DNA of 64,000 nucleotides from Acidobacteriota bacterium (lineage in GTDB: Bacteria > Acidobacteriota > Vicinamibacteria > Vicinamibacterales > UBA2999): NCBI GenBank assembly GCA_030697165.1, contig JAUYQQ010000015.1, positions 292,645 through 356,644 on the forward strand. The letters run 5' to 3'. Positions 1 through 62,190 of this stretch are shown here, piece by piece. A program made the position numbers and the translations under genes. Positions within the stretch are counted from its first letter, which is position 1. Every line of letters starts with the position of its first letter. The notes below the pieces were generated by a model. It was not told the DNA's origin, ran no database searches, and saw only the letters and a list, made by a program, of their open reading frames with translations.

Positions 1-26
1 GAGGGCAGCACTAAAGTGCCGCCCTC
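1..26 (-). terminator. GC-stem hairpin with TAAA/TTTA tetraloop 4 nt after the SDR stop codon (terminator-like, no U tract)
   Basis: gagggcagcac-taaa-gtgccgccctc; 11-nt arms with 10/11 complementary. It lies directly 3' (minus sense) of the TAA at 31-33. The left edge is limited by the window. Confidence 0.35.
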
Positions 27-30
27 CTGG

Positions 31-819
31 TTAGAGGGCGTTGCCGCCCGCACCGTCGACCATGATGGCCTGACCGCTGATGTAGCTGCCGGCCTGCGAG
101 GCGAGAAACACCACGAGGTTGGCCAGCTCTTCGGGACGGCCCAGGCGGCCGAGCGGGATGCTGGCGACCGACGCCTTGCGCACGTCATCGAGCGCCTTGC
201 CGCTCTTCTGCGCGTTGGCCTGGTCCAGCTCGGCAATGCGTTCGGTGTCGATGCGGCCCGGCGCGATCACATTGACCAGAATGCCCTGCGACGCCAACTC
301 CCGTGACAGGGTCTTGGCAATACCCCACACCCCCGCCCGCAGCGCATTGGACAGCGCGAGGTTCGGAATGGGCTGCTTGATCGAAGACGAAGCAATGGTG
401 AGGACGCGGCCGTACCCCGCCTTGGTCATTTCCGGCGCCGCCGCCCGCACGATGCGAGTGAAGCTCAGCAGGTTTTGCTCGAACGCTTTCTGCCACTGCT
501 CGTCGGACATGGCAAGCGTCTCGCCAGCCGGCGGACCGCCGGCATTGTGCACGACGATTTCGAGGCCACCGTACTCGGCCACCGCGGTGTCGACCAGCCG
601 TTGCGCCTCGCTGGCGCTGCTCACGTCGGCCACCAGCGCCTTGACCCGCGAGCCGGTCTCGCGGCGAATGGTGTCGGCCGCCGCCTCAATGCGCGCCTGA
701 TCGCGGCTGCACACCACAAGATCGCACCCTTCACGCGCCAGGCCGAGGGCCGAGGCGTAGCCGAGGCCGCGGCTGGCGGCCATCACGATCGCGCGCTTGC
801 CCTTCAATCCAAAGTCCAT
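31..819 (-). CDS. SDR family NAD(P)-dependent oxidoreductase
   Basis: 262-aa ORF with ATG start. Rossmann glycine motif near the N-terminus (KRAIVMAASRGLGYA), NAG-type motif (VHNAGG) and a typical classical-SDR C-terminus (GQAIMVDGG). Confidence 0.85.
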   Translation of the reverse strand: MDFGLKGKRAIVMAASRGLGYASALGLAREGCDLVVCSRDQARIEAAADTIRRETGSRVKALVADVSSASEAQRLVDTAVAEYGGLEIVVHNAGGPPAGETLAMSDEQWQKAFEQNLLSFTRIVRAAAPEMTKAGYGRVLTIASSSIKQPIPNLALSNALRAGVWGIAKTLSRELASQGILVNVIAPGRIDTERIAELDQANAQKSGKALDDVRKASVASIPLGRLGRPEELANLVVFLASQAGSYISGQAIMVDGAGGNAL

Positions 820-834
820 AGGTCAGCTTCTTGT

Positions 835-901
835 CAGTTGAAAGTTGAAGAGTTGAGAGTTGGTAGTTACAGTTGAGAGTTTCAGTTTCAGTTTCAGTTT
901 C
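835..901. repeat. Short tandem repeats filling an intergenic spacer: ~6 AGTT(G/A)-core heptamer-like units plus (GTTTCA)x3.8
   Basis: AGTT cores at 836, 843, 851, 858, 865 and 871. GTTTCA units at 879-884, 885-890 and 891-896, with a partial unit at 897-901. The stop of the upstream gene lies inside the hexamer tract. Confidence 0.9.
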
Positions 902-1799
902 TCGCTGCGAGTAGATCGAGGCGGGCAAGAATGTCATCGAGGTCCGCCAGCGTGTCGGCGTCCACCGGCGTGAACGGCGCACGCACGCGCGAGTGCTGGA
1001 TGACCCCGCGCAACTGGTAGATGTGCTTGCGCAGCGCAAGGTTGATGCGCGGCTGGTTCTCGAAGCGGATGATCGGCAGGAACTGGTAGAACACCTCGGT
1101 CGCGCCGTCGAGATCGCCGGCCGTGAAGCGCTTGAAGATGTCGACCAGGATCTCGGGAAAGGCAAAACCGGTCATGGTGCCAATCGCCCCATGCCGCAGC
1201 TCCTCCAGGAACATCATGCCGCCCAGGCCGCCGAAGATCTTCACGTCCCGCGAGGCGGCGCGGATCTGCGTGACCTTCATGGGCGCCGGTTCGTCCTCGA
1301 GCTTCAGGAACGACAGCCGCGGCGTGGCGGCGCCGAGCTTCGCGATCAGCTCGACGCTCATGGTGATGCCGCCCACGGCCGGTGGAAAGTCCTGGACGAC
1401 GACCGGTATGTCGACGGCCTCGGCGACCGCCAGGTAGTGGCGTTCGAGTGCCGCGTCGTTGGTGCGCGCCAGCTTCGGCGGCGCCACCATCACCGCCTTC
1501 GCCCCCAGTTCCTGGGCGCGGCGGCTATAGGCGATGCAGCCGTCGGTGCCGGCGTGGGTCGTGCCCACACAAATCGGGAATTCGGGACCGGCGGTCTCGA
1601 TAACGAGCGCCGTCACGCGATCGCGTTCCCCCTCCGTCAACTTGTCGGCCTCGCCGAGCACGCCGAGAATGGTCATGCCGTTGACGCCGGTGCCGCGCGT
1701 GAACGCGGTCAGCCGGCGCAGGCTCGGCTCATCGAGGGCGCCGTCGGGCAGAAATGGCGTCGGCGTGATGTTGTAGATGCCGGTCAGGTACTCAAACAT
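894..1799 (-). CDS. Dihydrodipicolinate synthase / N-acetylneuraminate lyase family aldolase
   Basis: 301-aa ORF. The N-terminus (ITPTPFLPDGALDE..., GVNGMTILGVLGEADKLTEGER) and overall length are typical of DapA-family class I aldolases. Confidence 0.8.
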   Translation of the reverse strand: MFEYLTGIYNITPTPFLPDGALDEPSLRRLTAFTRGTGVNGMTILGVLGEADKLTEGERDRVTALVIETAGPEFPICVGTTHAGTDGCIAYSRRAQELGAKAVMVAPPKLARTNDAALERHYLAVAEAVDIPVVVQDFPPAVGGITMSVELIAKLGAATPRLSFLKLEDEPAPMKVTQIRAASRDVKIFGGLGGMMFLEELRHGAIGTMTGFAFPEILVDIFKRFTAGDLDGATEVFYQFLPIIRFENQPRINLALRKHIYQLRGVIQHSRVRAPFTPVDADTLADLDDILARLDLLAARN

Positions 1800-1810
1800 T
1801 GCTTCCTATT

Positions 1811-2785
1811 CTACTTTGCGTCAGGAAACCTGGTGACGCGGTTGACGACCGGCGGCAGCGTCCGCAGATAGGCGTAGATGGCCGCCAGGTCCTCGCGCGT
1901 CATGCCGGCGTAAGCGGTCAACGGCATCGGCGTGTTCTGCCGGCGCTCCGTGTCGCTCAGCACCGCGTCCGACGGCGTCTCGAAGGCCTTGAACTTGTCG
2001 ATGAACTGCTGCTCGGTCCACGAGCCGATGCCGGTGTCGGCGTCGGGCGTGATGTTGGCGGCGCGCACGCGGTAGCCGGTCTCCAGGAACTCCATGCCGC
2101 CGGCAAACTCCCTGCCCGGCAGCGGTTGGCCGCGGTCATCGATCGGCGTGTGGCAATCGCCGCACAGGGCCGAGCGAGTCATGTACTTCCCGTACGCCAC
2201 CTTGTCGGTAGGCGAAGGTCTGGGCTGGGGTGTCGCGGCCGCCGGAATGGTGCGGACGATCAAGTTCATCGGAAAGTTCAGGGTGCGCGGGGGCACCTGG
2301 CTCTCGATCGCCTGCCAGGAGCGAACGTATACCAGGACCGCGTGCATGTCGTCGGCGGCCATGGCGCCAAAGTGCGGGTACGGCATGAGCGGAAAGAGCG
2401 GCGTGCCGTCCTTCGAAACGCCCGCCGTGACCGCGCGCTGCAGCTCTCCGTCAGTCCAGCTGCCGATGGCGGCCGGCGTGATGTTCTTGCCGTACACGAC
2501 GCCGGCGCCGCCCAAGGCAAACTCCTGCCCGCCAACGCCGATGCGGTCAGGCTTGACCGGGCCCGAAAACTTCGTCCAGTCGCGCTCGCTGTGGCAGTCG
2601 GTGCAGCCGACGACGTGATCGCTCAGATACTTGCCGCGCGCCAATCGCTCAGCCGTCGGCTCCAACGTCACGACGGCCGGTGGCGGCACCTTCGGAAACG
2701 CTAACATCAAGTAGCCAAGACCGGCGACCGCGGCCACCACCACGAGCGCCACCAACACCCCAACAATTTTCAATAGTGTTTTCAT
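1811..2785 (-). CDS. Membrane-anchored dihaem c-type cytochrome
   Basis: 324-aa ORF with an N-terminal TM helix (LKIVGVLVALVVVAAVAGLGYLML) and two CxxCH haem motifs (CTDCH, CGDCH). Confidence 0.75.
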   Translation of the reverse strand: MKTLLKIVGVLVALVVVAAVAGLGYLMLAFPKVPPPAVVTLEPTAERLARGKYLSDHVVGCTDCHSERDWTKFSGPVKPDRIGVGGQEFALGGAGVVYGKNITPAAIGSWTDGELQRAVTAGVSKDGTPLFPLMPYPHFGAMAADDMHAVLVYVRSWQAIESQVPPRTLNFPMNLIVRTIPAAATPQPRPSPTDKVAYGKYMTRSALCGDCHTPIDDRGQPLPGREFAGGMEFLETGYRVRAANITPDADTGIGSWTEQQFIDKFKAFETPSDAVLSDTERRQNTPMPLTAYAGMTREDLAAIYAYLRTLPPVVNRVTRFPDAK

Positions 2786-2800
2786 CGTCTCGTGCGGCTC

Positions 2801-2871
2801 CCCTGATCCCTGATCCCTGATCCCTGATCCCTGATCCCTGATCCCTGATCCCTGATCCCTGGATCCCTGAT
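2801..2871. repeat. Tandem heptamer (CCCTGAT)x10 (one unit CCCTGGAT); carries 10 GATC sites
   Basis: Read directly: units start at 2801 and recur every 7 nt, with a 1-nt insertion in the unit at 2857-2864. The tract fills most of the 86-nt spacer between the amidohydrolase stop (2872) and the cytochrome c start (2785). Confidence 0.95.
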
Positions 2872-4473
2872 CTACTGCCTGGCGGTCGTGGCCGGCTTGC
2901 TCCTGGCTTTCTGCACGATTGCCGCAACATCAGCAGCGAGCTTCTTCGCATCGTAGACAATGCCGTCCTTAATCGTGTACTTCACGCCGCCGACACGATC
3001 GACCTGGCCGGTCTGATCGTTGAGCTTCACGGCGCCAGTGGCATAGAGCACCTTGAAGTTCTCGAGAGGATTCTGGTCGACCAGCACCATGTCGGCCAGC
3101 AGGCCCGCGCGAATGATCCCGAAGTCGGCCGGCGTGCCCTTCGGTTCCGCGAGCGTGGCTGCGCCGTTGAGGGTCGCCGAGCGGATGACCTCGAGCGGGT
3201 GAAAACCGGCCTCCTGCAGCATCTCGAGCTCGAGGATGTAGCCAAAACCGTAGGTCTGGTAGATGAACCCGGAGTCAGAGCCGGTGGTGACGCGGCCGCC
3301 GGCGTTCTTGAAGTCGTTGAGGAACGACATCCACACCTGGTAGAAGCGCTTCCACTGGATTTCGTCTTCGGTCGTCCAGTAGAACCAGTACGCGCCGTGC
3401 GCGTTGCGGTTGGGCTGGTAGAAATCCCACAGGGACGGCAGCGTGTACTTGTCGTGCCACTCGGCTTCGCGCATGCGCATGACGTCGCGGCCCGCCGAGT
3501 AGATGTTCATGGTCGGGTCAATCGTGAACCTGGCGTCGACCCATTCCTTGATCAAGGCGTTCCACGGCTCGCTGCCACGGGGGTGAATCTTGTCGTGGAG
3601 CCGGGCCACCTGGCCGAAGCGGTGCTGCTCGTCGTTGTAGTTCTGGTTCAGCGGGAAGGGCTGCACCGAGTAGTCCTTGAGCAACGCCTCGAACAGGCCG
3701 TAGTAATGCGTCAACGAGCCCAGGCCCAGGCGCGAGGCGTCGCGCGCGTTCATGCGGCCGACGCCCATCTGGTCGAGGTGGGCGGTCGAGCCCAGGTTGA
3801 ACTTCTTGGCCTCGTCCAGCAAGGCGGCCATGATCTCGGGATCGTACGCGCCGAGCTTCATGCCATCGACGCCCTTCTTGGCGGCAAAGCGCACCCACTC
3901 GCGCGCACTGTCGGGCGTTTGCGGCCGGTTGCGATCCCATCCCTCGCCACTGAACGGGCGGTGGTACGCAAAGATCCTCGGCGCTACGATCTGGTTCTTG
4001 GCCGACAGCTCGCGCTGGTTGAGGTCCCAATCCATGGACCCGCACGGCACGCCGCGCACTGTCGTGACACCGTGGCTCAGCCACAGCTTGTAGACATACT
4101 CCGGGTCGCGCGCCTGCCCGCCGCCGCAGTGCACGTGGGCGTCGACAAACCCGGGCATCAGGTACAGACCGGTCCCGTCGACTTCTTTCGTGCCTTTGGC
4201 GGGCCGGCTGCGTTCGTTGATCGCAACCCCAGGAAAGCCGACGCTGGCAACCTCGGTGATGCGGTTGTTCTGCACGACCACATCCATCGGCCCGCGCGGC
4301 GGCGCGCCGGTGCCGTCGATCACCGTGACCCCGCGAATCACCATGCGGTCGAATGGGCCTTCGCCGTCGCCCGCCCCGCGGGCCGGGGTCGGCGGCATCT
4401 GCTGGGCCGACAAAGACACGGCCGCCACAACGAGGACGACGCCGGTGAGCGTGGAGCGCAAAATTCGTGACAT
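2872..4473 (-). CDS. Secreted amidohydrolase-superfamily metallo-hydrolase
   Basis: 533-aa ORF with a signal peptide (LTGVVLVVAAVSLSAQQ) and the metal-binding motif PGFVDAHVHCGG typical of the amidohydrolase fold. Confidence 0.75.
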   Translation of the reverse strand: MSRILRSTLTGVVLVVAAVSLSAQQMPPTPARGAGDGEGPFDRMVIRGVTVIDGTGAPPRGPMDVVVQNNRITEVASVGFPGVAINERSRPAKGTKEVDGTGLYLMPGFVDAHVHCGGGQARDPEYVYKLWLSHGVTTVRGVPCGSMDWDLNQRELSAKNQIVAPRIFAYHRPFSGEGWDRNRPQTPDSAREWVRFAAKKGVDGMKLGAYDPEIMAALLDEAKKFNLGSTAHLDQMGVGRMNARDASRLGLGSLTHYYGLFEALLKDYSVQPFPLNQNYNDEQHRFGQVARLHDKIHPRGSEPWNALIKEWVDARFTIDPTMNIYSAGRDVMRMREAEWHDKYTLPSLWDFYQPNRNAHGAYWFYWTTEDEIQWKRFYQVWMSFLNDFKNAGGRVTTGSDSGFIYQTYGFGYILELEMLQEAGFHPLEVIRSATLNGAATLAEPKGTPADFGIIRAGLLADMVLVDQNPLENFKVLYATGAVKLNDQTGQVDRVGGVKYTIKDGIVYDAKKLAADVAAIVQKARSKPATTARQ

Positions 4474-4477
4474 GAAA

Positions 4478-4495
4478 TCCCTCCGGAAAGAGGGA
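4478..4495 (-). promoter_or_regulatory. Hairpin pairing the Shine-Dalgarno (GGAGGGA) of the amidohydrolase gene with an upstream TCCCTC
   Basis: The minus strand reads TCCCTC-TTTCCG-GAGGGA-TTTC-ATG. This gives a 6-bp perfect stem whose 3' arm is the SD. Confidence 0.3.
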
Positions 4496-4522
4496 ATTCT
4501 AGCAGGATCTAACAGGAGACAA

Positions 4523-4548
4523 GGAGATCAGGAGCAATTTAGATCTCC
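4523..4548 (-). terminator. Hairpin after the ADOP permease stop (7-bp stem GGAGATC/GATCTCC, 12-nt loop)
   Basis: Perfect inverted repeat 15 nt downstream (minus sense) of the TGA at 4564-4566, followed by TTGTCTCCTGTT. Both arms contain GATC. Confidence 0.25.
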
Positions 4549-4563
4549 CGACCTCCGGTGAAA

Positions 4564-7050
4564 TCAGTCGGTGCGCAGGGCGGTCATCGGGTCGATGCGC
4601 ATGGCGCGGCGTGCCGGCACGAAGTTCGCCAGCCCGGCCGCCAGGGCCATGGCGGTAAACGCCAGCGTCCACGCCAGCGGATCGAGCGGCTGCACGCCGT
4701 AGAGCAGGCCCTGCAGCGCGAAGGCCACGACGGCGGCCAACAGGCCGCCCACCACCAGGCCGATCGCGACAATCGAGAAGCCCTGGCGCATGATCATGCC
4801 CATGACCCGCTCGGGGCGCGCGCCAAGCGCCATGCGGACGCCGATCTCGCGTGTGCGGCGCGCGACCGAGAAGGCGATCACGCCGTAGAGGCCGATCGCC
4901 GCCAGCAGCGTGCCCAGCCCGCCGAAGGCCGTCGCCAGCATCGCGCCGACCCGCGCCGGCATCAGGCTGAGGCCCAGGTTCTGTTCCATGGTGTTGGCCG
5001 ACATGAACACCAGGCCCGGCTCCATCGCCAGCAGCTCGCGCCGGATGTCATTGACGAGCGCGGTGGCGTCGCCGCTGGTCCGGGCGAGCAGGAAATTGTA
5101 GCGGCTCGCCCGCTGCGCTTCAGCGAAGTAGACGAACGGCGAGGCCTGCTCGAGCACGCCGTGGCGCTTGTGGTCGCGGCTGACGCCGACGATGCGGTAG
5201 GTCCGTTTGTTGACCGGGCTCTGAAAAGTGTGCCCCACCGCCGATTCGTTCGGCCAGAACTTCCGCGCCATCGTTTCGTTGATCACGGCCACGTCCTGCC
5301 CGCCGGCGATGTCGGTGGCGTCGAGGTCGCGGCCGTCGGTCACCGGCACGCCGAGCGTGGCCAGATAGCCGGGCGAAATCGCGACGTTCTCAATAATCTC
5401 GCCGCGCTGCCCTTCGTGGTAGGTGCGGTTGTCGATCCGCAGTTCCTGCTGGTTGAAGTTGAACGTAAACGGCAGGGTCGGCGACACCAGGCCGGCCGAG
5501 GTCACCGAGGGCATGGCGCGGACCCGCGCCAGCGCCTGCCGCCAGAACTCGAGCCCGCGCGCCGGCTCGTAGCGAACCATGTCGGTGTCGAGCGCAATCG
5601 CCGCCAGCCCGCGCGTCTCGAAGCCGACCTCCGCCCGCTGTGATGCGCCCAGGCTGCGCAGCAGCAGGCCGGCGACCACGAGCAGTACGACGGTAAGCGC
5701 CACCTGCGACACCACCAGCGCATCGCGCAACGCCCAGCGGCGGCCGCCCACCTTGGTGGCCGGCGCGTCGCCGCGCAGGTCGCTCACCAAGCTGGGTGCC
5801 GAAGCCTTGAGCGCGGGCAACAGGCCGGCGAGCAGCCCCGTGCCAATGGCAATCAGCAGCGAGAACGACAGCACGCGCCCATCAATGCGAAGGTCGAAGA
5901 CAATGTCGACCGGCAGCGGCAGCGGCATGGTTTGCATGCCCTGCACGAGCGCCCACGCCAACCCGGACGCGGCGACCGCGCCAAGCACGCCGAGCGTCAG
6001 GCCTTCGACCAGGAGCTGCTGGATCAAGCGCGCCCGGCTGGCGCCAATGGCCAGCCGCACGCTGATCTCGCGGCGGCGCGCCGAGGCTCGCGCGAGCAGC
6101 ATGCCGGCCACGTTGGCACAGGCGATCAACAAGACGAGACCGACAATGCCCATGAGTCCGGCCGCGCCGAGCGACAGCACGCCGCCGGCCTGGGGCACCA
6201 GCAGGCGGACCTGCTCGGTCGGCACCGCCGCCATCTTGCGATCCTTGTTGGTCACCGGGTTGTCGGCTTCGAGTTGCGAACCGATCAGCGCGACGTTGGC
6301 GTGCGCCTGCGCGGCCGAGGTGCCGGGCTTCAGGCGGCCCTTGATGAACATCCACCGCATGCCGCGGCGTTCCAGGGTGGTCTTGCCCACGGGCGACGGC
6401 ACCGAGTCGGTGATCCCGGCCGGCTCAACCTCTTCCACCTGGGTAATCGGCAGCCACAGTTCGGGTGTCAGCAGCGGCACGACCCCAGTGAACGAGGCCG
6501 GCGCGACCCCGGCAATGGTGTACGGCTGGCCGCGCAGCGTGAGCGACTTGCCGTCGATCGCCGGGTCGGCGCCGAACTCGCGCTGCCACATGCGATGCGA
6601 GATCACCACGACCCTGGCGGCAGACGGCTCATCATCCGTCGGCACGAGCATTCGTCCCAGGAGCGGCTGCACGCCGAGCATCGAGAAGTGGTTCGAGGTG
6701 ACCAGCTGCCCCAGCGCAATGCGCGACCGATCCCCCAGGCTGAGCGGCGCCATCATCGGGCTGTAGCCCAGGACGTCGCTGAACACCGTGTTCTGGGCCT
6801 TCAGGTCCTGGAAGTCGGCATAAGACGAGGTCGCGTATTCATCACCGTCGCCGCCGGCCGTGAACACGTCCACGAGCGTGCTGGGTGCGGTGACGGGCAA
6901 GGGTCGGAACAGCAGTGAGTCCACCAGGGAAAACATCGCCGTGTTGACGCCGACGCCCAGGCCGAGCGACAGGATGGCGACGGCAGAGAACCCGGGGCTG
7001 CGGGCCATCCAACGCAGGGCGTAGCGAATGTCTTTGAGCAGGGTGTCCAC
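4564..7050 (-). CDS. ADOP-family duplicated MacB/FtsX-type ABC permease (orphan; no adjacent ATPase)
   Basis: 828-aa ORF. The N-terminus MDTLLKDIRYALRWMARSPGFSAVAILSLGLGVGVNTAMFS is characteristic of the acidobacterial duplicated orphan permease family. There are two MacB_PCD/FtsX halves. Confidence 0.85.
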   Translation of the reverse strand: MDTLLKDIRYALRWMARSPGFSAVAILSLGLGVGVNTAMFSLVDSLLFRPLPVTAPSTLVDVFTAGGDGDEYATSSYADFQDLKAQNTVFSDVLGYSPMMAPLSLGDRSRIALGQLVTSNHFSMLGVQPLLGRMLVPTDDEPSAARVVVISHRMWQREFGADPAIDGKSLTLRGQPYTIAGVAPASFTGVVPLLTPELWLPITQVEEVEPAGITDSVPSPVGKTTLERRGMRWMFIKGRLKPGTSAAQAHANVALIGSQLEADNPVTNKDRKMAAVPTEQVRLLVPQAGGVLSLGAAGLMGIVGLVLLIACANVAGMLLARASARRREISVRLAIGASRARLIQQLLVEGLTLGVLGAVAASGLAWALVQGMQTMPLPLPVDIVFDLRIDGRVLSFSLLIAIGTGLLAGLLPALKASAPSLVSDLRGDAPATKVGGRRWALRDALVVSQVALTVVLLVVAGLLLRSLGASQRAEVGFETRGLAAIALDTDMVRYEPARGLEFWRQALARVRAMPSVTSAGLVSPTLPFTFNFNQQELRIDNRTYHEGQRGEIIENVAISPGYLATLGVPVTDGRDLDATDIAGGQDVAVINETMARKFWPNESAVGHTFQSPVNKRTYRIVGVSRDHKRHGVLEQASPFVYFAEAQRASRYNFLLARTSGDATALVNDIRRELLAMEPGLVFMSANTMEQNLGLSLMPARVGAMLATAFGGLGTLLAAIGLYGVIAFSVARRTREIGVRMALGARPERVMGMIMRQGFSIVAIGLVVGGLLAAVVAFALQGLLYGVQPLDPLAWTLAFTAMALAAGLANFVPARRAMRIDPMTALRTD

Positions 7051-7096
7051 GTCCCCTTAGACGAGGCTGGCGAAGCGAAGTTCAGGAGTGCCAGAA

Positions 7097-7118
7097 GGCC
7101 GGGACTTTAGTCCCGGCC
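7097..7118 (-). terminator. Perfect 9-bp GC hairpin with TTTA loop 8 nt after the SDR stop
   Basis: ggccgggac-ttta-gtcccggcc. It lies between the stop of 7127..7933 and the start of the permease gene. Only a weak T-run (TTCT) follows on the minus strand. Confidence 0.35.
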
Positions 7119-7126
7119 AGGCCCGT

Positions 7127-7933
7127 TCAGGTCTTTCGATACCGGCGGCCGGCGGCCCGCGAAACCGCCTTGACGATGCCTTTCGGGACCACCCCCATCA
7201 GCCAGAGCAGGAGCCTGTAAGCCCGCCCGTTGACGACCACCGCGTCGCCGCGCATGACCGCCTCGTAGCCTTCGCGGGCCACGTCGGCGGCGTTCAACCA
7301 CAGCATGGCCGGCACGCTATTCATCTGCTGGCGCGTGCCGGTGACGTCGTGAAACTCACTGTAGGTAAAGCCCGGGCAGACGGCGGTGACGTGCACACCC
7401 TTGTGGGCATTTTCGGCGGCGAGCGCCTCCGAGAACCGGATCACGAACGCCTTCGACGCGCCGTACAGGGTGTGGCCGGCCGGCGCCGGCACCATGCCGG
7501 CCACCGACGCGATGTTGATCACGCGGCCCCAGCCCCGCTCCAGCATGCCGGGCAGCAGCAGATAGGTGAGGTCGCACATCGCGGTCATCATGATCTGGAT
7601 GAACCGTTGATGTTCGGGCCAGGCCACGCTGACGTAGCTGCCGGGCACGCCGTAGCCGGCGTTGTTGACGAGCACATCGATGCGCAACCCCTGGGCGCGC
7701 ACCACCCCGGCAATGCGCGCCGGCGCGCCGGGGTCGGCCAGGTCGGCCACGATGACATGGGTGGCAACGCCGTGAGCGGCGTGCAGTTGTTCAGCCAGTT
7801 CATCCAGTCGATCCCGCCGGCGGGCCGTCACGACCAGGCTGTAGCCGCGCGCCGCCAGCAACTCGGCGAACGCCTTGCCAATACCTGACGAGGCGCCCGT
7901 CACCAGGGCGGTCTTGCCCTCGCCTTCTCGCAT
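7127..7933 (-). CDS. SDR family oxidoreductase
   Basis: The ORF track gives 7127..8032. The start was trimmed to the ATG at 7933 (MREGEGKTALVTGASSGIGKAF) because the upstream 33 codons cover hairpin repeats. Motifs TGxxxGxG, NNAG and YGASK are present. Confidence 0.8.
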   Translation of the reverse strand: MREGEGKTALVTGASSGIGKAFAELLAARGYSLVVTARRRDRLDELAEQLHAAHGVATHVIVADLADPGAPARIAGVVRAQGLRIDVLVNNAGYGVPGSYVSVAWPEHQRFIQIMMTAMCDLTYLLLPGMLERGWGRVINIASVAGMVPAPAGHTLYGASKAFVIRFSEALAAENAHKGVHVTAVCPGFTYSEFHDVTGTRQQMNSVPAMLWLNAADVAREGYEAVMRGDAVVVNGRAYRLLLWLMGVVPKGIVKAVSRAAGRRYRKT

Positions 7934-7966
7934 GACACAGTGTAGCCTCCGCTGGCGCGGTGTCGC

Positions 7967-7984
7967 ATCCGGCTTTAGCCGGAT
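7967..7984. repeat. Hairpin repeat atccggc-ttta-gccggat
   Basis: 7-bp perfect stem with a TTTA loop in the divergent intergenic region 7934-8070. Confidence 0.7.
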
Positions 7985-8004
7985 ATCAGAGAAGAGCGGG
8001 CATG

Positions 8005-61155: not shown

Positions 61156-62082
61156 GTGGAACGCCGGGGCCTGCGCCCGTTCTTGAAATGGGTCGGCGGC
61201 AAGCGGCAACTGTTGCCGGTCCTGCGCCGCTATTACCCGCCGGCCCCCGGCGCGTACTTCGAGCCGTTCGTCGGCAGCGGGGCCGTGTTCTTCGACCTGC
61301 TCGCGCACGGGCGCCTCGACGGGCGGCCCATCACCCTCAGCGACGACAACGCCGACCTGATTGGCTGTTACGCGCGGGTCGCCGACGCGTTGCCGGCGGT
61401 CATTGCCGCACTCGAGCACCTCGCCGAAGGTCACGCGCGCGACGGCCGCGCGCACTACCTGCACGTGCGCGACACGTTGTTCAACCCGCAGCGGGCGGCA
61501 TGGCGCGCCGGCGGCAGCCACCTCGCCGGCTACGGTGCCGGCCTGGCGGCGATGCTGATCTACTTGAATCGCACCGGCTACAACGGGCTCTTCCGCGTCA
61601 ACTCCACGGGTGAATACAACGTGCCGCCCGGCCGCTACGAGCGCCCGCGCATCGTTGACCGCCCGCTCCTGGAGGACGTGTCCACCGTGCTGACGCGTCC
61701 GAACGTGCGGGTGCAGCGCGCCCCGTTCGACGGCGTGTTGAACGACGCCCGCGCCGGCGACTTTGCGTATTTCGATCCGCCCTATGCGCCACTGAGCAAG
61801 ACCGCCAATTTTCGCGGCTACACCGGGCGCGGCTTCACCGACACCGACCAGGCGCACCTGCAGCAAGTAGTGCTCGAACTGTCGCGCCGCGGCGTGCACG
61901 TGCTGCTCAGCAACTCGACTGCCCCATCGGTCGCGCGGCTGTACGACGGCAACGCCGAGGCCCGCCGCGCGGGCCTGTGTACCTGGCAGTTTCCGGCCCG
62001 TCGGGCGGTCAATTCCAATGCCCAGCGACGGGGGACGGTCGCCGAACTGGTCGTGTCGAACATCCAGCCCGACCCGTGTTAA
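61156..62082 (+). CDS. dam: DNA adenine methyltransferase, D12 class (Dam family), orphan
   Basis: 308 aa, GTG start. N-terminal RPFLKWVGGKRQLL (AdoMet-binding motif of Dam-type enzymes) and the catalytic DPPY (FAYFDPPYAPLS). No adjacent endonuclease gene. Confidence 0.85.
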   Translation: MERRGLRPFLKWVGGKRQLLPVLRRYYPPAPGAYFEPFVGSGAVFFDLLAHGRLDGRPITLSDDNADLIGCYARVADALPAVIAALEHLAEGHARDGRAHYLHVRDTLFNPQRAAWRAGGSHLAGYGAGLAAMLIYLNRTGYNGLFRVNSTGEYNVPPGRYERPRIVDRPLLEDVSTVLTRPNVRVQRAPFDGVLNDARAGDFAYFDPPYAPLSKTANFRGYTGRGFTDTDQAHLQQVVLELSRRGVHVLLSNSTAPSVARLYDGNAEARRAGLCTWQFPARRAVNSNAQRRGTVAELVVSNIQPDPC

Positions 62083-62103
62083 CCTCGGTAGGATCCTCCG
62101 CGC

Positions 62104-62190
62104 GCGAAAGTGGCGGAATTGGCAGACGCGCCGGCCTTAGGAGCCGGTGGCCGAAAGGCTGTAAGGGTTCGAGTCCCTTCTTTCGCACCA
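62104..62190 (+). tRNA. tRNA-Leu (anticodon UAG), type II with long variable arm, CCA encoded
   Basis: Manual fold. Acceptor gcgaaag/ctttcgc; anticodon stem ccggc/gccgg with loop cTTAGga (anticodon TAG); variable stem ggcc-gaaa-ggct; T arm aaggg-ttcgagt-ccctt; discriminator A followed by CCA. Confidence 0.9.

What the first reader, a model, noticed from the sequence alone, without database searches (positions are those of the whole stretch)
2801..2871. (CCCTGAT)x10 heptamer array, giving ten GATC sites at 7-bp spacing upstream of a cytochrome c gene, in a window that also encodes an orphan Dam
There are nine perfect units and one CCCTGGAT unit. Every unit junction forms GATC, giving 10 sites in 72 bp. 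The tract fills most of the gap between the amidohydrolase stop (2872) and the dihaem cytochrome c start (2785). Heptamer tracts are classic slipped-strand substrates, and a unit change would shift promoter or 5'-UTR geometry. A D12-class adenine methyltransferase without a restriction partner lies at 61156..62082. If it targets GATC, this is a dense methylation array. That would resemble the Dam-dependent epigenetic switches of the pap and agn43 type, but built from a repeat. Three more GATCs cluster in the next spacer (4506, 4525, 4542).
Basis: partly seen in the sequence, partly recalled or inferred. Interest (0 to 1): 0.55.

Follow-up and report, generated by a model that had tools for sequence, protein, structure and literature searches.

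The report
G-rich heptamer microsatellite inside an operon
The ten closely spaced GATC sites come from an ordinary, fast-evolving 7-base microsatellite that recently expanded between two co-transcribed genes, of a kind already described in Xanthomonas and cyanobacteria, and nothing found here shows it to be a methylation switch.

Summary
Window 2801..2871 is (CCCTGAT)x10 with one CCCTGGAT unit, carries 10 GATC sites, and fills the 86-nt gap between the amidohydrolase stop and the dihaem cytochrome c start. A Dam-family methyltransferase, probably GATC-specific, lies at 61156..62082.

In about 20 orthologous operons the two genes are separated only by a stop codon, 2-3 nt and the ATG, so this is an intercistronic junction and not a promoter. 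The array exists only in the closest relatives, as 10 units here, 3 in L152 and a decayed GATC-free remnant in L121.

The same unit occurs as 3-18-unit arrays at 120 or more loci in other genomes. About half are Acidobacteriota. Arrays sit mostly in intergenic spacers of every gene topology. In an unbiased 496 kb from relatives, period-7 arrays dominate the short repeats.

Within the family, the A and T of GATC are the most variable positions. GATC is ordinary in the window (419 sites, observed/expected 1.03).

This is a new member (unit GGGATCA) of the known G-quadruplex-prone heptamer repeat class (GGGAATC and GGGGAYT; Rehm 2015). Any effect on cytochrome c expression is inferred, not shown.

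One point is unexplained. This unit is 3-13 times commoner than composition-matched heptamers.

The parts
2801..2871 (-). Heptanucleotide microsatellite. On the sense (-) strand it reads ATCAGGG, ATCCAGGG, then (ATCAGGG)x8, giving 10 G3 tracts with 4-5-nt loops (a G-quadruplex motif) and 10 GATC sites.
   Evidence: It is the only G4 motif on the - strand of the window, with G4Hunter score 1.08.
2872..4473 (-). Amidohydrolase-family gene, the upstream cistron. Its TAG stop (2872-2874) directly abuts the array.
   Evidence: PF01979, PF07969. Orthologues at 60-98% identity were found in 80 metagenome loci.
1811..2785 (-). Dihaem c-type cytochrome gene, the downstream cistron. It has an N-terminal membrane anchor or signal sequence and two CXXCH motifs.
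   Evidence: It is conserved directly downstream of the amidohydrolase in relatives at 80% identity or more.
2786..2800 (-). The 15 nt left between the array and the cytochrome c ATG. Together with the last GGG of the array it forms a Shine-Dalgarno-like GGGGAG (2798..2803), 12 nt before the ATG.
   Evidence: The Shine-Dalgarno role is inferred.
4474..4563 (-). Spacer upstream of the amidohydrolase. The third, at 4506, lies outside the repeat. This is the likely promoter and leader of the operon.
   Evidence: The box and hairpin are present in most relatives with different stem sequences. The promoter function is inferred.
820..893 (-). A second repeat-filled spacer in the same operon, between the DHDPS-family gene and the SDR gene. 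It holds about four GAAACT units (the first begins at the gene's stop codon) followed by degenerate TCAACT-type heptamers.
61156..62082 (+). Dam-family (D12) N6-adenine DNA methyltransferase, probably GATC-specific. It has no adjacent restriction gene and is followed by tRNA-Leu (62104..62190) and trigger factor. It is the likely methylase of all 419 GATCs in the window, array included. It is not shown to be functionally linked to the array.

Best explanation
The tract is a slippage-generated G-rich heptanucleotide microsatellite, (ATCAGGG)n on the sense strand. It arose recently in what was ancestrally a spacer of only 2-3 nt between the stop codon and the ATG of two tightly coupled cistrons, an amidohydrolase and a dihaem cytochrome c.

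It belongs to a large population of heptamer arrays scattered through intergenic spacers of this lineage (probably Acidobacteriota) and of other phyla. It is the same kind of element as the G-quadruplex-prone GGGAATC repeats of Xanthomonas and the GGGGA(C/T)T repeats of Nostoc.

Shown here: the anatomy, the lineage-specific origin, the different unit numbers in relatives, the dispersed family, and the lack of any preference for gene orientation.

Inferred:
- Heptamer slip-outs arise at replication and escape mismatch repair. From my own knowledge, MutS handles loops of about 4 nt or fewer.
- The ten GATCs are a by-product of the unit sequence. The Dam-family enzyme presumably methylates them like every other GATC.
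- The array is transcribed within the operon mRNA. There its G3 tracts or GAUC:GAUC pairings sit immediately 5' of the cytochrome c ribosome-binding site.
- The expansion therefore breaks the tight stop-start coupling and probably changes, most likely lowers, cytochrome c translation in a copy-number-dependent way. This would be a side effect, not a designed switch.
For: Anatomy:
- Searches give the array, the GATC positions and the flanking genes.

Origin at this locus:
- About 20 orthologous loci at 85-89% amidohydrolase identity have ...TAA ACG ATG... with no array.
- L152 (92% identity) has TAG ATCAGGG ATCAGGG ATGAGGG.
- L121 (95% identity) has a degenerate period-7 remnant, TTCGGGG AGCAGGG ACCGGCG GTCAGGG ACTAGCG.

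Recurrence in the same operon:
- In L137 the same ATCAGGG unit fills the DHDPS-SDR spacer, and in L126 and L132 it runs into the DHDPS 3' end.
- Other units fill spacers in L138 (CAATCAG), L140 (AATAACG), L146 (GACTCCC) and L191 (GGGGTTCT).

Period-7 excess:
- In an unbiased 496 kb from relatives plus the window, arrays at TRF score 46 or more number 11 at period 7, 0 at periods 5-6 and 3 at period 8.

Dispersed family:
- (CCCTGAT)x3 hit 120 or more loci in species-representative genomes. By my count of the record titles, 59 of 120 are labelled Acidobacteriota. Several genomes carry multiple arrays, with 3-18 units each.
- Those loci also hold 67 heptamer arrays of other units, against only 2 arrays of period 6.
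- 102 of 137 arrays are intergenic by my gene calls. Topologies with both neighbours within 400 bp are 17 tandem with the G-rich strand as sense, 16 tandem with the C-rich strand as sense, 18 convergent and 17 divergent.
- Unit-number frequencies fall off steadily from 4 units upward: 49, 25, 13, 9, 8....
- Arrays lie closer to the 5' neighbour in G-strand orientation, 58 versus 23, p=1e-4.

Match to the described class:
- Rehm et al. 2015 (PMC4692102) report the same 5'-neighbour bias, intergenic location and length differences between related species for GGGAATC.
- Heptanucleotide repeats were reported as the most abundant long simple-repeat class, with a polymerase-slippage explanation. This is Mrazek 2007 as summarised in PMC4679880 and PMC4692102.
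Against: - GGGATCAx3 gives 40 stretches in IMG/VR. Composition-matched units give 3-13. These include GGGTACA, which also has G3 plus a 4-bp palindrome, and GGGAATC, the Xanthomonas unit.
- This excess is not explained by 7-mer background frequency or by predicted hairpin energy. Something sequence-specific beyond neutral slippage probably favours this unit.
- The 5'-neighbour asymmetry has no neutral explanation. Part of it could also be an artefact of my longest-ORF gene calls.
- All four ATCAGGG arrays seen in this operon family have the G-rich strand as the sense strand and start at or next to a stop codon.
- No expression, methylation or population data exist for this locus.
Confidence: 0.7

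Rival explanations
1. Selected intercistronic RNA element. The transcribed (AUCAGGG)10 folds into RNA G-quadruplexes or a rod-like hairpin of GAUC:GAUC helices. It would protect the upstream amidohydrolase message from 3' exonucleases, or mask the cytochrome c ribosome-binding site, or both. This would set the expression ratio of the two cistrons, much as REP elements do in E. coli operons. Changes in unit number would retune it, as at a contingency locus.
For: - There are ten G3 tracts on the sense strand, and this is the only G4 motif on that strand in 64 kb.
- The predicted RNA structure of the array is -26 to -28 kcal/mol, against -17.3 +/- 3.8 for shuffles.
- The last G tract overlaps the Shine-Dalgarno-like GGGGAG.
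- The most typical position of family members is just after a stop codon with the G-rich strand as sense: median 21 bp, 72% within 50 bp.
- (GGGAATC)3GGG, of identical composition, forms a G4 in K+ with T1/2 of 50.4 C (PMC4692102).
- A transcribed heptamer repeat controls hmw1A through an RNA hairpin in H. influenzae (PMC12721329).
- This unit is commoner than composition-matched controls.
Against: - Across the family the G-rich strand is sense as often as antisense. Convergent and divergent spacers are used at the frequencies expected for random placement.
- Most orthologous operons work with no spacer at all.
- The closest relative is letting its array decay.
- Rehm et al. could not find a regulatory role for the Xanthomonas and Nostoc repeats.
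- The associated genes are metabolic, not surface structures.
Confidence: 0.2
2. The array is a dense Dam methylation target that works as a heritable epigenetic switch of the pap/agn43 type. A DNA-binding protein would block methylation of some GATCs and so fix ON or OFF states of the cytochrome c gene.
For: - A Dam-family enzyme with GATC-type recognition residues is encoded in the window without a restriction partner.
- There are ten GATCs in 72 bp.
- GATC-containing heptamers (13 and 8 stretches) are somewhat commoner in IMG/VR than non-GATC G3 heptamers (3-5). GGGATCA is 13 times commoner than GGGTACA.
Against: - The site is an intercistronic junction, not a promoter. Ancestrally it had no room for any regulatory DNA.
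- GATC is lost in the L121 orthologue. Its central A and T are the most variable positions of the unit (101 and 118 of 462 substitutions).
- Arrays occur in all gene topologies.
- Arrays occur in Streptomyces and Burkholderia. From my own knowledge, not tested here, these lineages usually lack Dam.
- GATC is neither enriched nor avoided elsewhere.
- No candidate competing regulator was found.
Confidence: 0.04
3. A multivalent platform for an RNA-binding protein. Each unit contains CAGGGAU, which fits the CsrA/RsmA core CA-R-GGA-U as I recall it. The transcribed array could then titrate or recruit a CsrA-like or S1/Csp-like protein, as was proposed for the TAACTGA heptamer repeats of Beggiatoaceae.
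For: - There are ten GGA motifs at 7-nt spacing on the sense strand, directly upstream of a ribosome-binding site.
- MacGregor 2015 (PMC4679880) made an analogous proposal for another heptamer repeat.
Against: - The family has no strand preference relative to transcription.
- Co-occurring heptamer arrays have unrelated units without GGA.
- I did not look for a CsrA gene, and none is evident in the parts of the window I examined.
- The fit to the CsrA consensus rests on memory, not on a test.
Confidence: 0.03

Closest known systems
G-quadruplex-forming heptameric repeats GGGAATC (Xanthomonas) and GGGGA(C/T)T (Nostoc PCC 7120), Rehm et al. 2015, PLoS One (PMC4692102)
   Same: - The unit is 7 nt with a G3 tract and a 4-nt loop, of the same base composition as GGGAATC.
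- Arrays are dispersed and mostly intergenic, with 2-26 units.
- Lengths differ strongly between relatives.
[quoted passage not shown]
- Arrays lie closer to the 5' neighbouring ORF in G-strand orientation: 58 versus 23 here, and 28 versus 160 nt on average there.
- Occasional inverted pairs of arrays occur, as in L050, L098 and L117.
- No link to surface-antigen genes.
   Different: - The loop is permuted (GGG-ATCA versus GGG-AATC). That creates a GATC palindrome at every junction and weak self-complementarity.
- The host range is centred on Acidobacteriota, with Planctomycetota, Chloroflexota and others, rather than xanthomonads and cyanobacteria.
- Here divergent spacers are not under-represented (17 of 68, against 7-8% there).
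- G4 formation by this unit has not been tested.
Heptanucleotide long simple sequence repeats of prokaryotes (Mrazek, Guo and Shah 2007, as summarised in PMC4679880 and PMC4692102) and the cyanobacterial STRR heptamers
   Same: Period 7 dominates the short tandem repeats of these genomes. Counts are 11 at period 7 against 0 at periods 5-6 in an unbiased 496 kb, and 67 non-target heptamer arrays against 2 hexamer arrays in the pattern-selected loci. Many different units coexist in one genome, in large high-GC genomes of free-living bacteria.
   Different: To my knowledge Acidobacteriota were not among the lineages highlighted. I could not read the 2007 paper. The unit ATCAGGG is not mentioned in any paper of the searchable library.
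H. influenzae hmw1A/hmw2A (ATCTTTC)n heptamer repeat (PMC8262952, PMC12721329)
   Same: A heptamer repeat lying directly upstream of a start codon and transcribed as part of the mRNA. There, unit number changes expression through RNA structure.
   Different: - The hmw repeat sits between a promoter and its gene, in a host-adapted pathogen, and controls an adhesin.
- That repeat has measured population-level phase variation.
- Here the array is intercistronic in a metabolic operon of a probable soil bacterium, and no population data exist.
Dam-dependent epigenetic switches (pap with Lrp/PapI, agn43 with OxyR in E. coli; from my own knowledge)
   Same: A cluster of GATC sites near a gene start, in a genome that encodes a solitary Dam-family methyltransferase.
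   Different: - Those switches use 2-3 GATCs embedded in binding sites of a specific regulator inside a promoter.
- Those GATCs are conserved.
- Here there is no promoter, no regulator site, no conservation of GATC, and the sites come from a repeat unit.

Membership tests
G-rich heptameric simple repeats (GGGAATC / GGGGAYT class, Rehm 2015) | Head-to-tail 7-nt units, each carrying a G tract of 3 or more, with 4 or more tracts in a row (a G4 motif) | tested here: met
   There are 10 units with G3 tracts and 4-5-nt loops, and the G4 regular expression matches - strand 2800..2867. The G4Hunter score is 1.08, against 1.14 for GGGAATC.
G-rich heptameric simple repeats (GGGAATC / GGGGAYT class, Rehm 2015) | Many dispersed copies per genome, mostly in non-coding DNA | tested here: inconclusive
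   The feature is met for the unit in other genomes. There are 120 or more loci, up to 4-5 loci from a single assembly (JBOGIQ01, JADZCN01, DATLXN01), and 102 of 137 arrays are intergenic. The source genome of this window could not be examined. The window itself holds only this one ATCAGGG array, plus one other repeat-filled spacer.
G-rich heptameric simple repeats (GGGAATC / GGGGAYT class, Rehm 2015) | Unit number and sequence differ between close relatives at the same locus | tested here: met
   There are 10 units in the window, 3 in L152, a decayed array of about 5 units in L121, and none in about 20 relatives.
G-rich heptameric simple repeats (GGGAATC / GGGGAYT class, Rehm 2015) | [quoted passage not shown] | tested here: met
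   In the window the array is 0 nt from the amidohydrolase stop and 15 nt from the next start. Across the family the count is 58 versus 23 (p=1e-4), with a median of 21 bp after stop codons on the G-sense strand. Gene calls came from my own crude GC-frame caller.
G-rich heptameric simple repeats (GGGAATC / GGGGAYT class, Rehm 2015) | Forms a G-quadruplex in vitro in K+ | not testable with these tools
   There is only the motif and the analogy with (GGGAATC)3GGG, which has T1/2 of 50.4 C. With the G4 option on, ViennaRNA places one G4 inside the predicted structure.
G-rich heptameric simple repeats (GGGAATC / GGGGAYT class, Rehm 2015) | Unit sequence of the published type GGGNATC / GGGGAYT | tested here: not met
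   The unit is GGGATCA. No rotation of it equals GGGNATC. I therefore file it as a new member of the class, not as the same repeat family.
Dam-dependent epigenetic switch (pap / agn43 type) | A GATC-specific solitary Dam methyltransferase in the genome | tested here: met
   PF02086 matches at 2.6e-47, and TIGR00571 at 206.7 bits against a cut-off of 114.85. The best solved relatives are DpnM and E. coli Dam, and the GATC-contact motifs are conserved. Specificity is inferred, not measured.
Dam-dependent epigenetic switch (pap / agn43 type) | The GATC sites lie in the promoter or regulatory region of the controlled operon | tested here: not met
   The site is an intercistronic junction. Orthologues have stop + 2-3 nt + ATG. 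No promoter-like site was found. The conserved promoter-like box and leader lie upstream of the amidohydrolase.
Dam-dependent epigenetic switch (pap / agn43 type) | The GATCs are embedded in binding sites of a regulator that competes with Dam, and are conserved | tested here: not met
   No regulator site could be identified. GATC is absent from the L121 remnant. The A and T of GATC are the most variable unit positions.
Dam-dependent epigenetic switch (pap / agn43 type) | Heritable unmethylated or hemimethylated GATC states | not testable with these tools
   This needs SMRT or nanopore 6mA data.
Simple-repeat contingency locus (for example H. influenzae hmw1A heptamers) | Reversible unit-number changes within populations that alter expression of the adjacent gene | not testable with these tools
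   Only differences between relatives were seen. An exact-flank search of metagenome contigs for other alleles found nothing.
Simple-repeat contingency locus (for example H. influenzae hmw1A heptamers) | Association with surface, antigen or host-interaction genes | tested here: not met
   The flanking genes are an amidohydrolase, a c-type cytochrome, a DHDPS-family enzyme and an SDR.

The most novel reading that the evidence does not exclude
GGGATCA arrays may be more than passive slippage products. They could be a specifically favoured element found across phyla, in which the combination of a G3 tract and a GATC palindrome matters. One example would be adenine methylation by Dam-family enzymes tuning G-quadruplex or cruciform formation, or array stability. 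Another would be a dedicated protein or mechanism that seeds and extends them next to ORF ends. Such a cause would account for their 3-13-fold excess over composition-matched heptamers, their repeated independent appearance in different spacers of the same operon, and the unexplained polarity towards the 5' neighbour.
Probability: 0.07. Interest if true: 0.7.

Novelty: new member of a known kind. Interest (0 to 1): 0.3.

Why it matters
The practical value is mostly corrective. A striking GATC cluster next to an orphan Dam is not evidence for an epigenetic switch when the sites are generated by a repeat unit. Comparison with orthologues settles that quickly.

The work also extends the poorly understood G-rich heptamer repeat class to Acidobacteriota and other soil phyla, with a new unit. 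It shows such arrays being born, expanded and decayed inside the spacers of one conserved operon.

It reproduces the unexplained bias towards the 5' neighbour reported in 2015. If the sequence-specific excess of GGGATCA holds up in a proper census, it would give a handle on why heptamers, and these heptamers in particular, proliferate in bacterial genomes.

Tried and rejected
- Exact-protein look-ups of the two flanking genes found no other assembly of this strain.
- An exact-flank pattern search of metagenome contigs for alleles with other unit numbers found nothing.
- Rfam at E of 1 or less on 1..8000 found no family.
- The sigma-70 promoter scan of 1700..4800 found none. Its only terminator-like hit near the operon is the conserved leader hairpin at 4478..4495.
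- I tested whether hairpin potential from the GATC palindrome explains why this unit is common. I rejected this. DNA hairpin energies are weak (-5 to -10 kcal/mol per 70 nt). GGGTACA folds as well as GGGATCA yet is 13 times rarer.
- I tested whether 7-mer background frequency explains it, and rejected this too. GGGAATC, GATCGGA and GATCGAG are as frequent or more frequent as single 7-mers.
- A tblastn search for Dam in all fetched loci, to test Dam/array co-occurrence, gave no hits. The loci are too short for this to be informative.
- The viral-contig arrays show the 5'-neighbour bias only weakly (20 versus 14). Several of those loci are duplicates and my gene calls are poorer there.
- A preference for four units, as reported by Rehm et al., cannot be claimed here. 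My search under-detects 3-unit arrays, and the counts fall off steadily from 4 upward.
- I considered the array as coding sequence. The G-rich strand has no stops and reads IRDQGSG. Here the 103-aa ORF through it (2649..2960) overlaps both real genes out of frame, so I rejected it.
- The Mrazek 2007 paper is not held. A literature search for the unit in all six of the rotations tried found nothing relevant.
Full report
**1. The observation**

The + strand of the window at 2801..2871 is nine CCCTGAT units and one CCCTGGAT unit. Tandem Repeats Finder reports period 7, 10.1 copies, 96% matches and score 135, by far the strongest array in the 64 kb. GATC starts at 2805, 2812, 2819, 2826, 2833, 2840, 2847, 2854, 2862 and 2869.

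All genes here are on the - strand:
- MacB/FtsX permease, 4564..7050
- amidohydrolase, 2872..4473
- c-type cytochrome, 1811..2785, with two CXXCH motifs
- DHDPS-family gene, 894..1799
- SDR, 31..819

On the sense strand the junction reads ...CAG TAG | ATCAGGG ATCCAGGG (ATCAGGG)x8 | GAGCCGCACGAGACG ATG. The array begins at the base after the amidohydrolase stop codon and ends 15 nt before the cytochrome c start.

GATC as such is not unusual in this DNA. There are 419 sites in 64 kb, with a Markov observed/expected ratio of 1.03. The local density follows entirely from the repeat unit.

**2. The methyltransferase**

ORF 61156..62082 matches PF02086 (2.6e-47) and NCBIfam TIGR00571 'dam' (206.7 bits, cut-off 114.85). 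Its best solved relatives are DpnM (2dpm, 2.4e-55) and E. coli Dam (1.7e-30), which both act on GATC.

In the printed alignment it keeps the letters of the E. coli Dam stretches FLKWxGGK, YLNRxGYNGLxR, NVP and DPPY. From my own knowledge of the Dam-DNA structures, these include the GATC-contact residues K9, Y119, N120, L122, R124 and P134.

Its neighbours are a 220-aa protein with a lipoprotein-like N-terminus and no family hit, then tRNA-Leu (62104..62190) and trigger factor. 'Solitary, probably GATC-specific Dam' is therefore a fair description. Specificity remains inferred.

**3. What the site is in relatives**

A search of metagenome contigs with the amidohydrolase returned 80 loci. The cytochrome c gene follows it in nearly all loci at 80% identity or more that extend far enough.

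- In about 20 loci at 85-89% amidohydrolase identity the junction is simply ...TAA ACG ATG... or an equivalent. That is a stop codon, 2-3 nt and the start codon.
- Three more distant loci (L143, L146, L174) instead have 93-136-nt spacers. In L143 and L146 these hold a G+C-rich hairpin, followed in L146 by a run of T.
- Only the closest relatives have period-7 sequence at the junction. L152 (92%) reads TAG ATCAGGG ATCAGGG ATGAGGG GCGAATGGGACG ATG.
- L121 (95%) reads TAG TTCGGGG AGCAGGG ACCGGCG GTCAGGG ACTAGCG AAGACG ATG. This is a decayed array with no GATC left.

The most economical reading is that the array was born in the common ancestor of these three. It has since expanded to 10 units here, stayed short in L152 and degenerated in L121.

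The site is therefore an intercistronic junction that ancestrally had no room for a promoter or operator. The promoter scan finds nothing in 1700..4800. A conserved TATACT/TAGAAT box, followed by a hairpin that contains the Shine-Dalgarno sequence, lies upstream of the amidohydrolase in the window and in relatives. It is the likely operon promoter and leader. That function is inferred.

**4. It is one of many**

By my count of the record titles, 59 of the 120 are labelled Acidobacteriota (Vicinamibacterales, Acidobacteriaceae, Terracidiphilus, Blastocatellia). The rest are Planctomycetota, Chloroflexota, Proteobacteria, Actinomycetota and a few others. Several assemblies contribute 3-5 loci each. 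Arrays have 3-18 units.

In these loci, arrays with TRF score 46 or more are overwhelmingly of period 7. There are 180 in all, of which 67 have other units such as CCCCTGA, CCCCGAT, CCCTAAT, CCCCAGT, AAGTTGA and GCCTAAA. Period 6 has 2 arrays and period 8 has 19.

The 80 amidohydrolase loci plus the window (496 kb) were not selected for repeats. There the same holds: period 7 has 11 arrays, periods 5-6 have none, and period 8 has 3. All 11 heptamer arrays are in the window or the close relatives, and four of them are ATCAGGG.

The other spacers of this same operon carry independent arrays in different relatives:
- ATCAGGG between the DHDPS-family gene and the SDR gene in L137, and running into the DHDPS 3' end in L126 and L132
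- CAATCAG in L138
- AATAACG in L140
- GACTCCC in L146
- the octamer GGGGTTCT in L191
- GAAACT units plus TCAACT-type heptamers in the window at 820..893

**5. No relation to gene orientation**

I called genes with a simple caller of my own, using long ORFs scored by GC at the three codon positions. It reproduces the window's genes. By these calls, 102 of 137 arrays are intergenic.

Where both neighbours lie within 400 bp, the topologies are 17 tandem with the G-rich strand as sense, 16 tandem with the C-rich strand as sense, 18 convergent and 17 divergent. These are the proportions expected for random placement among spacers. They argue against a family-wide role that depends on one strand being transcribed, or on a promoter.

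The C-rich strand has TGA in every frame, and the G-rich strand has no stops. This explains why some arrays abut or run into ORF ends.

Arrays are closer to the 5' neighbour in G-strand orientation (58 versus 23, p=1e-4). The commonest position is just after a stop codon with the G-rich strand as sense (median 21 bp). That is exactly the window's configuration. Part of this asymmetry could come from my longest-ORF start rule. The comparison restricted to gene 3' ends is still significant (medians 21 versus 52.5 bp, p=0.008).

**6. GATC is not the conserved part**

I collected 340 variant units lying in register within or beside perfect arrays. Substitutions per position of A-T-C-A-G-G-G are 101, 118, 45, 63, 15, 52 and 68.

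The A and T at the centre of GATC are the most variable positions, mostly changing to G. The first G of the tract is the most constant. GC-biased mutation may contribute. Either way the result is the opposite of what a methylation-site array under selection would show.

**7. Physical properties**

The sense strand is the only G4 motif on that strand in the window. With G4 folding allowed, ViennaRNA places one quadruplex inside a rod of GAUC:GAUC 4-bp helices, at -27.7 kcal/mol for the array against -17.3 +/- 3.8 for shuffles. The G4Hunter score is 1.08, against 1.14 for GGGAATC. The last G tract overlaps a GGGGAG that could serve as the cytochrome c Shine-Dalgarno sequence, 12 nt before the ATG. 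These are predictions only.

**8. Comparison with what is known**

Rehm et al. [quoted passage not shown] There are 186 and 183 loci in two Xanthomonas genomes, plus GGGGA(C/T)T repeats in Nostoc. Their findings:
- 2-26 units per array
- 89-93% of arrays intergenic
- average distance of 28 nt to the 5' ORF against 160 nt to the 3' ORF
- extensive length differences between Xcc and Xac
- G4 formation in vitro, with T1/2 of 50.4 C for (GGGAATC)3GGG
- no identifiable regulatory role and no link to surface genes

They and MacGregor 2015 (PMC4679880) summarise Mrazek et al. 2007. That work found heptanucleotide repeats to be the most abundant long simple-repeat class in most genomes. It proposed that 7 nt matches the DNA segment held by the polymerase, which would favour slippage.

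The present array meets every structural and contextual feature of this class that I could test. The exception is the unit sequence. GGGATCA is a loop permutation of GGGAATC, and that permutation is what creates GATC. No paper in the searchable library mentions this unit.

By contrast, the defining features of pap/agn43-type switches were tested and not met. These are a promoter location and conserved GATCs inside a regulator's binding site.

**9. What remains odd**

In IMG/VR contigs, GGGATCAx3 gives 40 stretches, with some duplicate loci. The composition-matched controls give fewer:
- GATCGAG, 13
- GATCGGA, 8
- GGGACTA, 5
- GGGAATC, 3
- GGGTACA, 3

Neither single 7-mer background frequency nor predicted hairpin stability accounts for this excess. 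GGGTACA has the same composition, a G3 tract and a 4-bp palindrome, yet is 13 times rarer.

So this particular unit seems to be favoured for a reason I cannot name. That leaves a small opening for a role of GATC or its methylation in the birth or stability of arrays. It does not support a gene switch at this locus. The controls are few and come from a different sequence population from the background counts, so this needs a proper census.

**10. Verdict**

The Dam-switch part is not supported.

The best explanation is a recently expanded G-rich heptanucleotide microsatellite of a known class. It sits inside an operon transcript, and its ten GATCs are incidental. Its most likely consequence is loss of tight stop-start coupling, and a copy-number-dependent, probably negative, effect on cytochrome c translation through RNA structure next to the ribosome-binding site. 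This consequence is inferred, not shown.

Novelty: a new member of a known kind. Interest is modest, at 0.3.

Noticed in passing
window 820..893 (- strand): The spacer between the DHDPS-family gene and the SDR gene is also filled with short tandem repeats. It holds about four GAAACT units (the first begins at the gene's stop codon) followed by degenerate TCAACT-type heptamers. Most orthologues have only 9-13 nt in this spacer.
   Followed up: partly
L137 6524..6550; L126 3775..3811; L132 3589..3625; L138 4661..4690; L140 5540..5577, 6496..6527 and 7324..7355; L146 2904..2948; L191 2813..2884: Orthologous operons in metagenomes carry independent tandem arrays in different spacers. These include the same ATCAGGG unit in the DHDPS-SDR spacer of L137, L126 and L132. 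In L126 and L132 it appears to run into the 3' end of the DHDPS ORF. This points to repeated de novo birth of heptamer arrays in operon spacers of this lineage.
   Followed up: partly
window 4478..4501 (- strand), and the equivalent position upstream of the amidohydrolase ATG in most of the loci listed (for example L121, L123, L126, L130): There is a conserved promoter-like TATACT/TAGAAT box, followed by a hairpin whose 3' arm contains the Shine-Dalgarno GGAGG. Examples are TCCCTC..GGAGGGA, GGCCTC..GGAGGCC and TTGCCTC..GGAGGCAA. The stems differ between relatives but stay complementary, which suggests a conserved leader that masks the Shine-Dalgarno sequence. Rfam has no match.
   Followed up: partly
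window 4502..4563 (- strand): Compared with L121, the window has about 50 extra nt in the MacB-amidohydrolase spacer. Its function is unknown.
   Followed up: no
L001-L120 and the window (family-wide): GGGATCA arrays lie closer to the 5' neighbouring ORF in G-strand orientation whatever that ORF's direction (58 versus 23). This repeats an unexplained bias reported for GGGAATC in Xanthomonas. It is weaker (20 versus 14) in the viral-contig set.
   Followed up: partly
L208, L217, L231, L233, L237 (all from IMGVR_UViG_3300037258_000931, 132,674 bp): A single 132-kb contig classed as viral carries at least six pattern matches and more than a dozen short GGGATCA arrays. It is either a large phage that shares its host's repeat habit or a misclassified chromosomal fragment.
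   Followed up: no
L050 3293..3394; L098 974..1075; L117 4267..4367: Pairs of GGGATCA arrays in opposite orientation lie within about 50-80 bp of each other. They resemble the convergent inverted pairs described for GGGAATC in Xanthomonas and could form cruciforms or stem-loops.
   Followed up: no
window 61156..62190: The Dam-family methyltransferase gene ends 21 nt before a tRNA-Leu gene, which is followed by trigger factor. Its position next to a tRNA gene might mean it arrived on a small integrated element.
   Followed up: no
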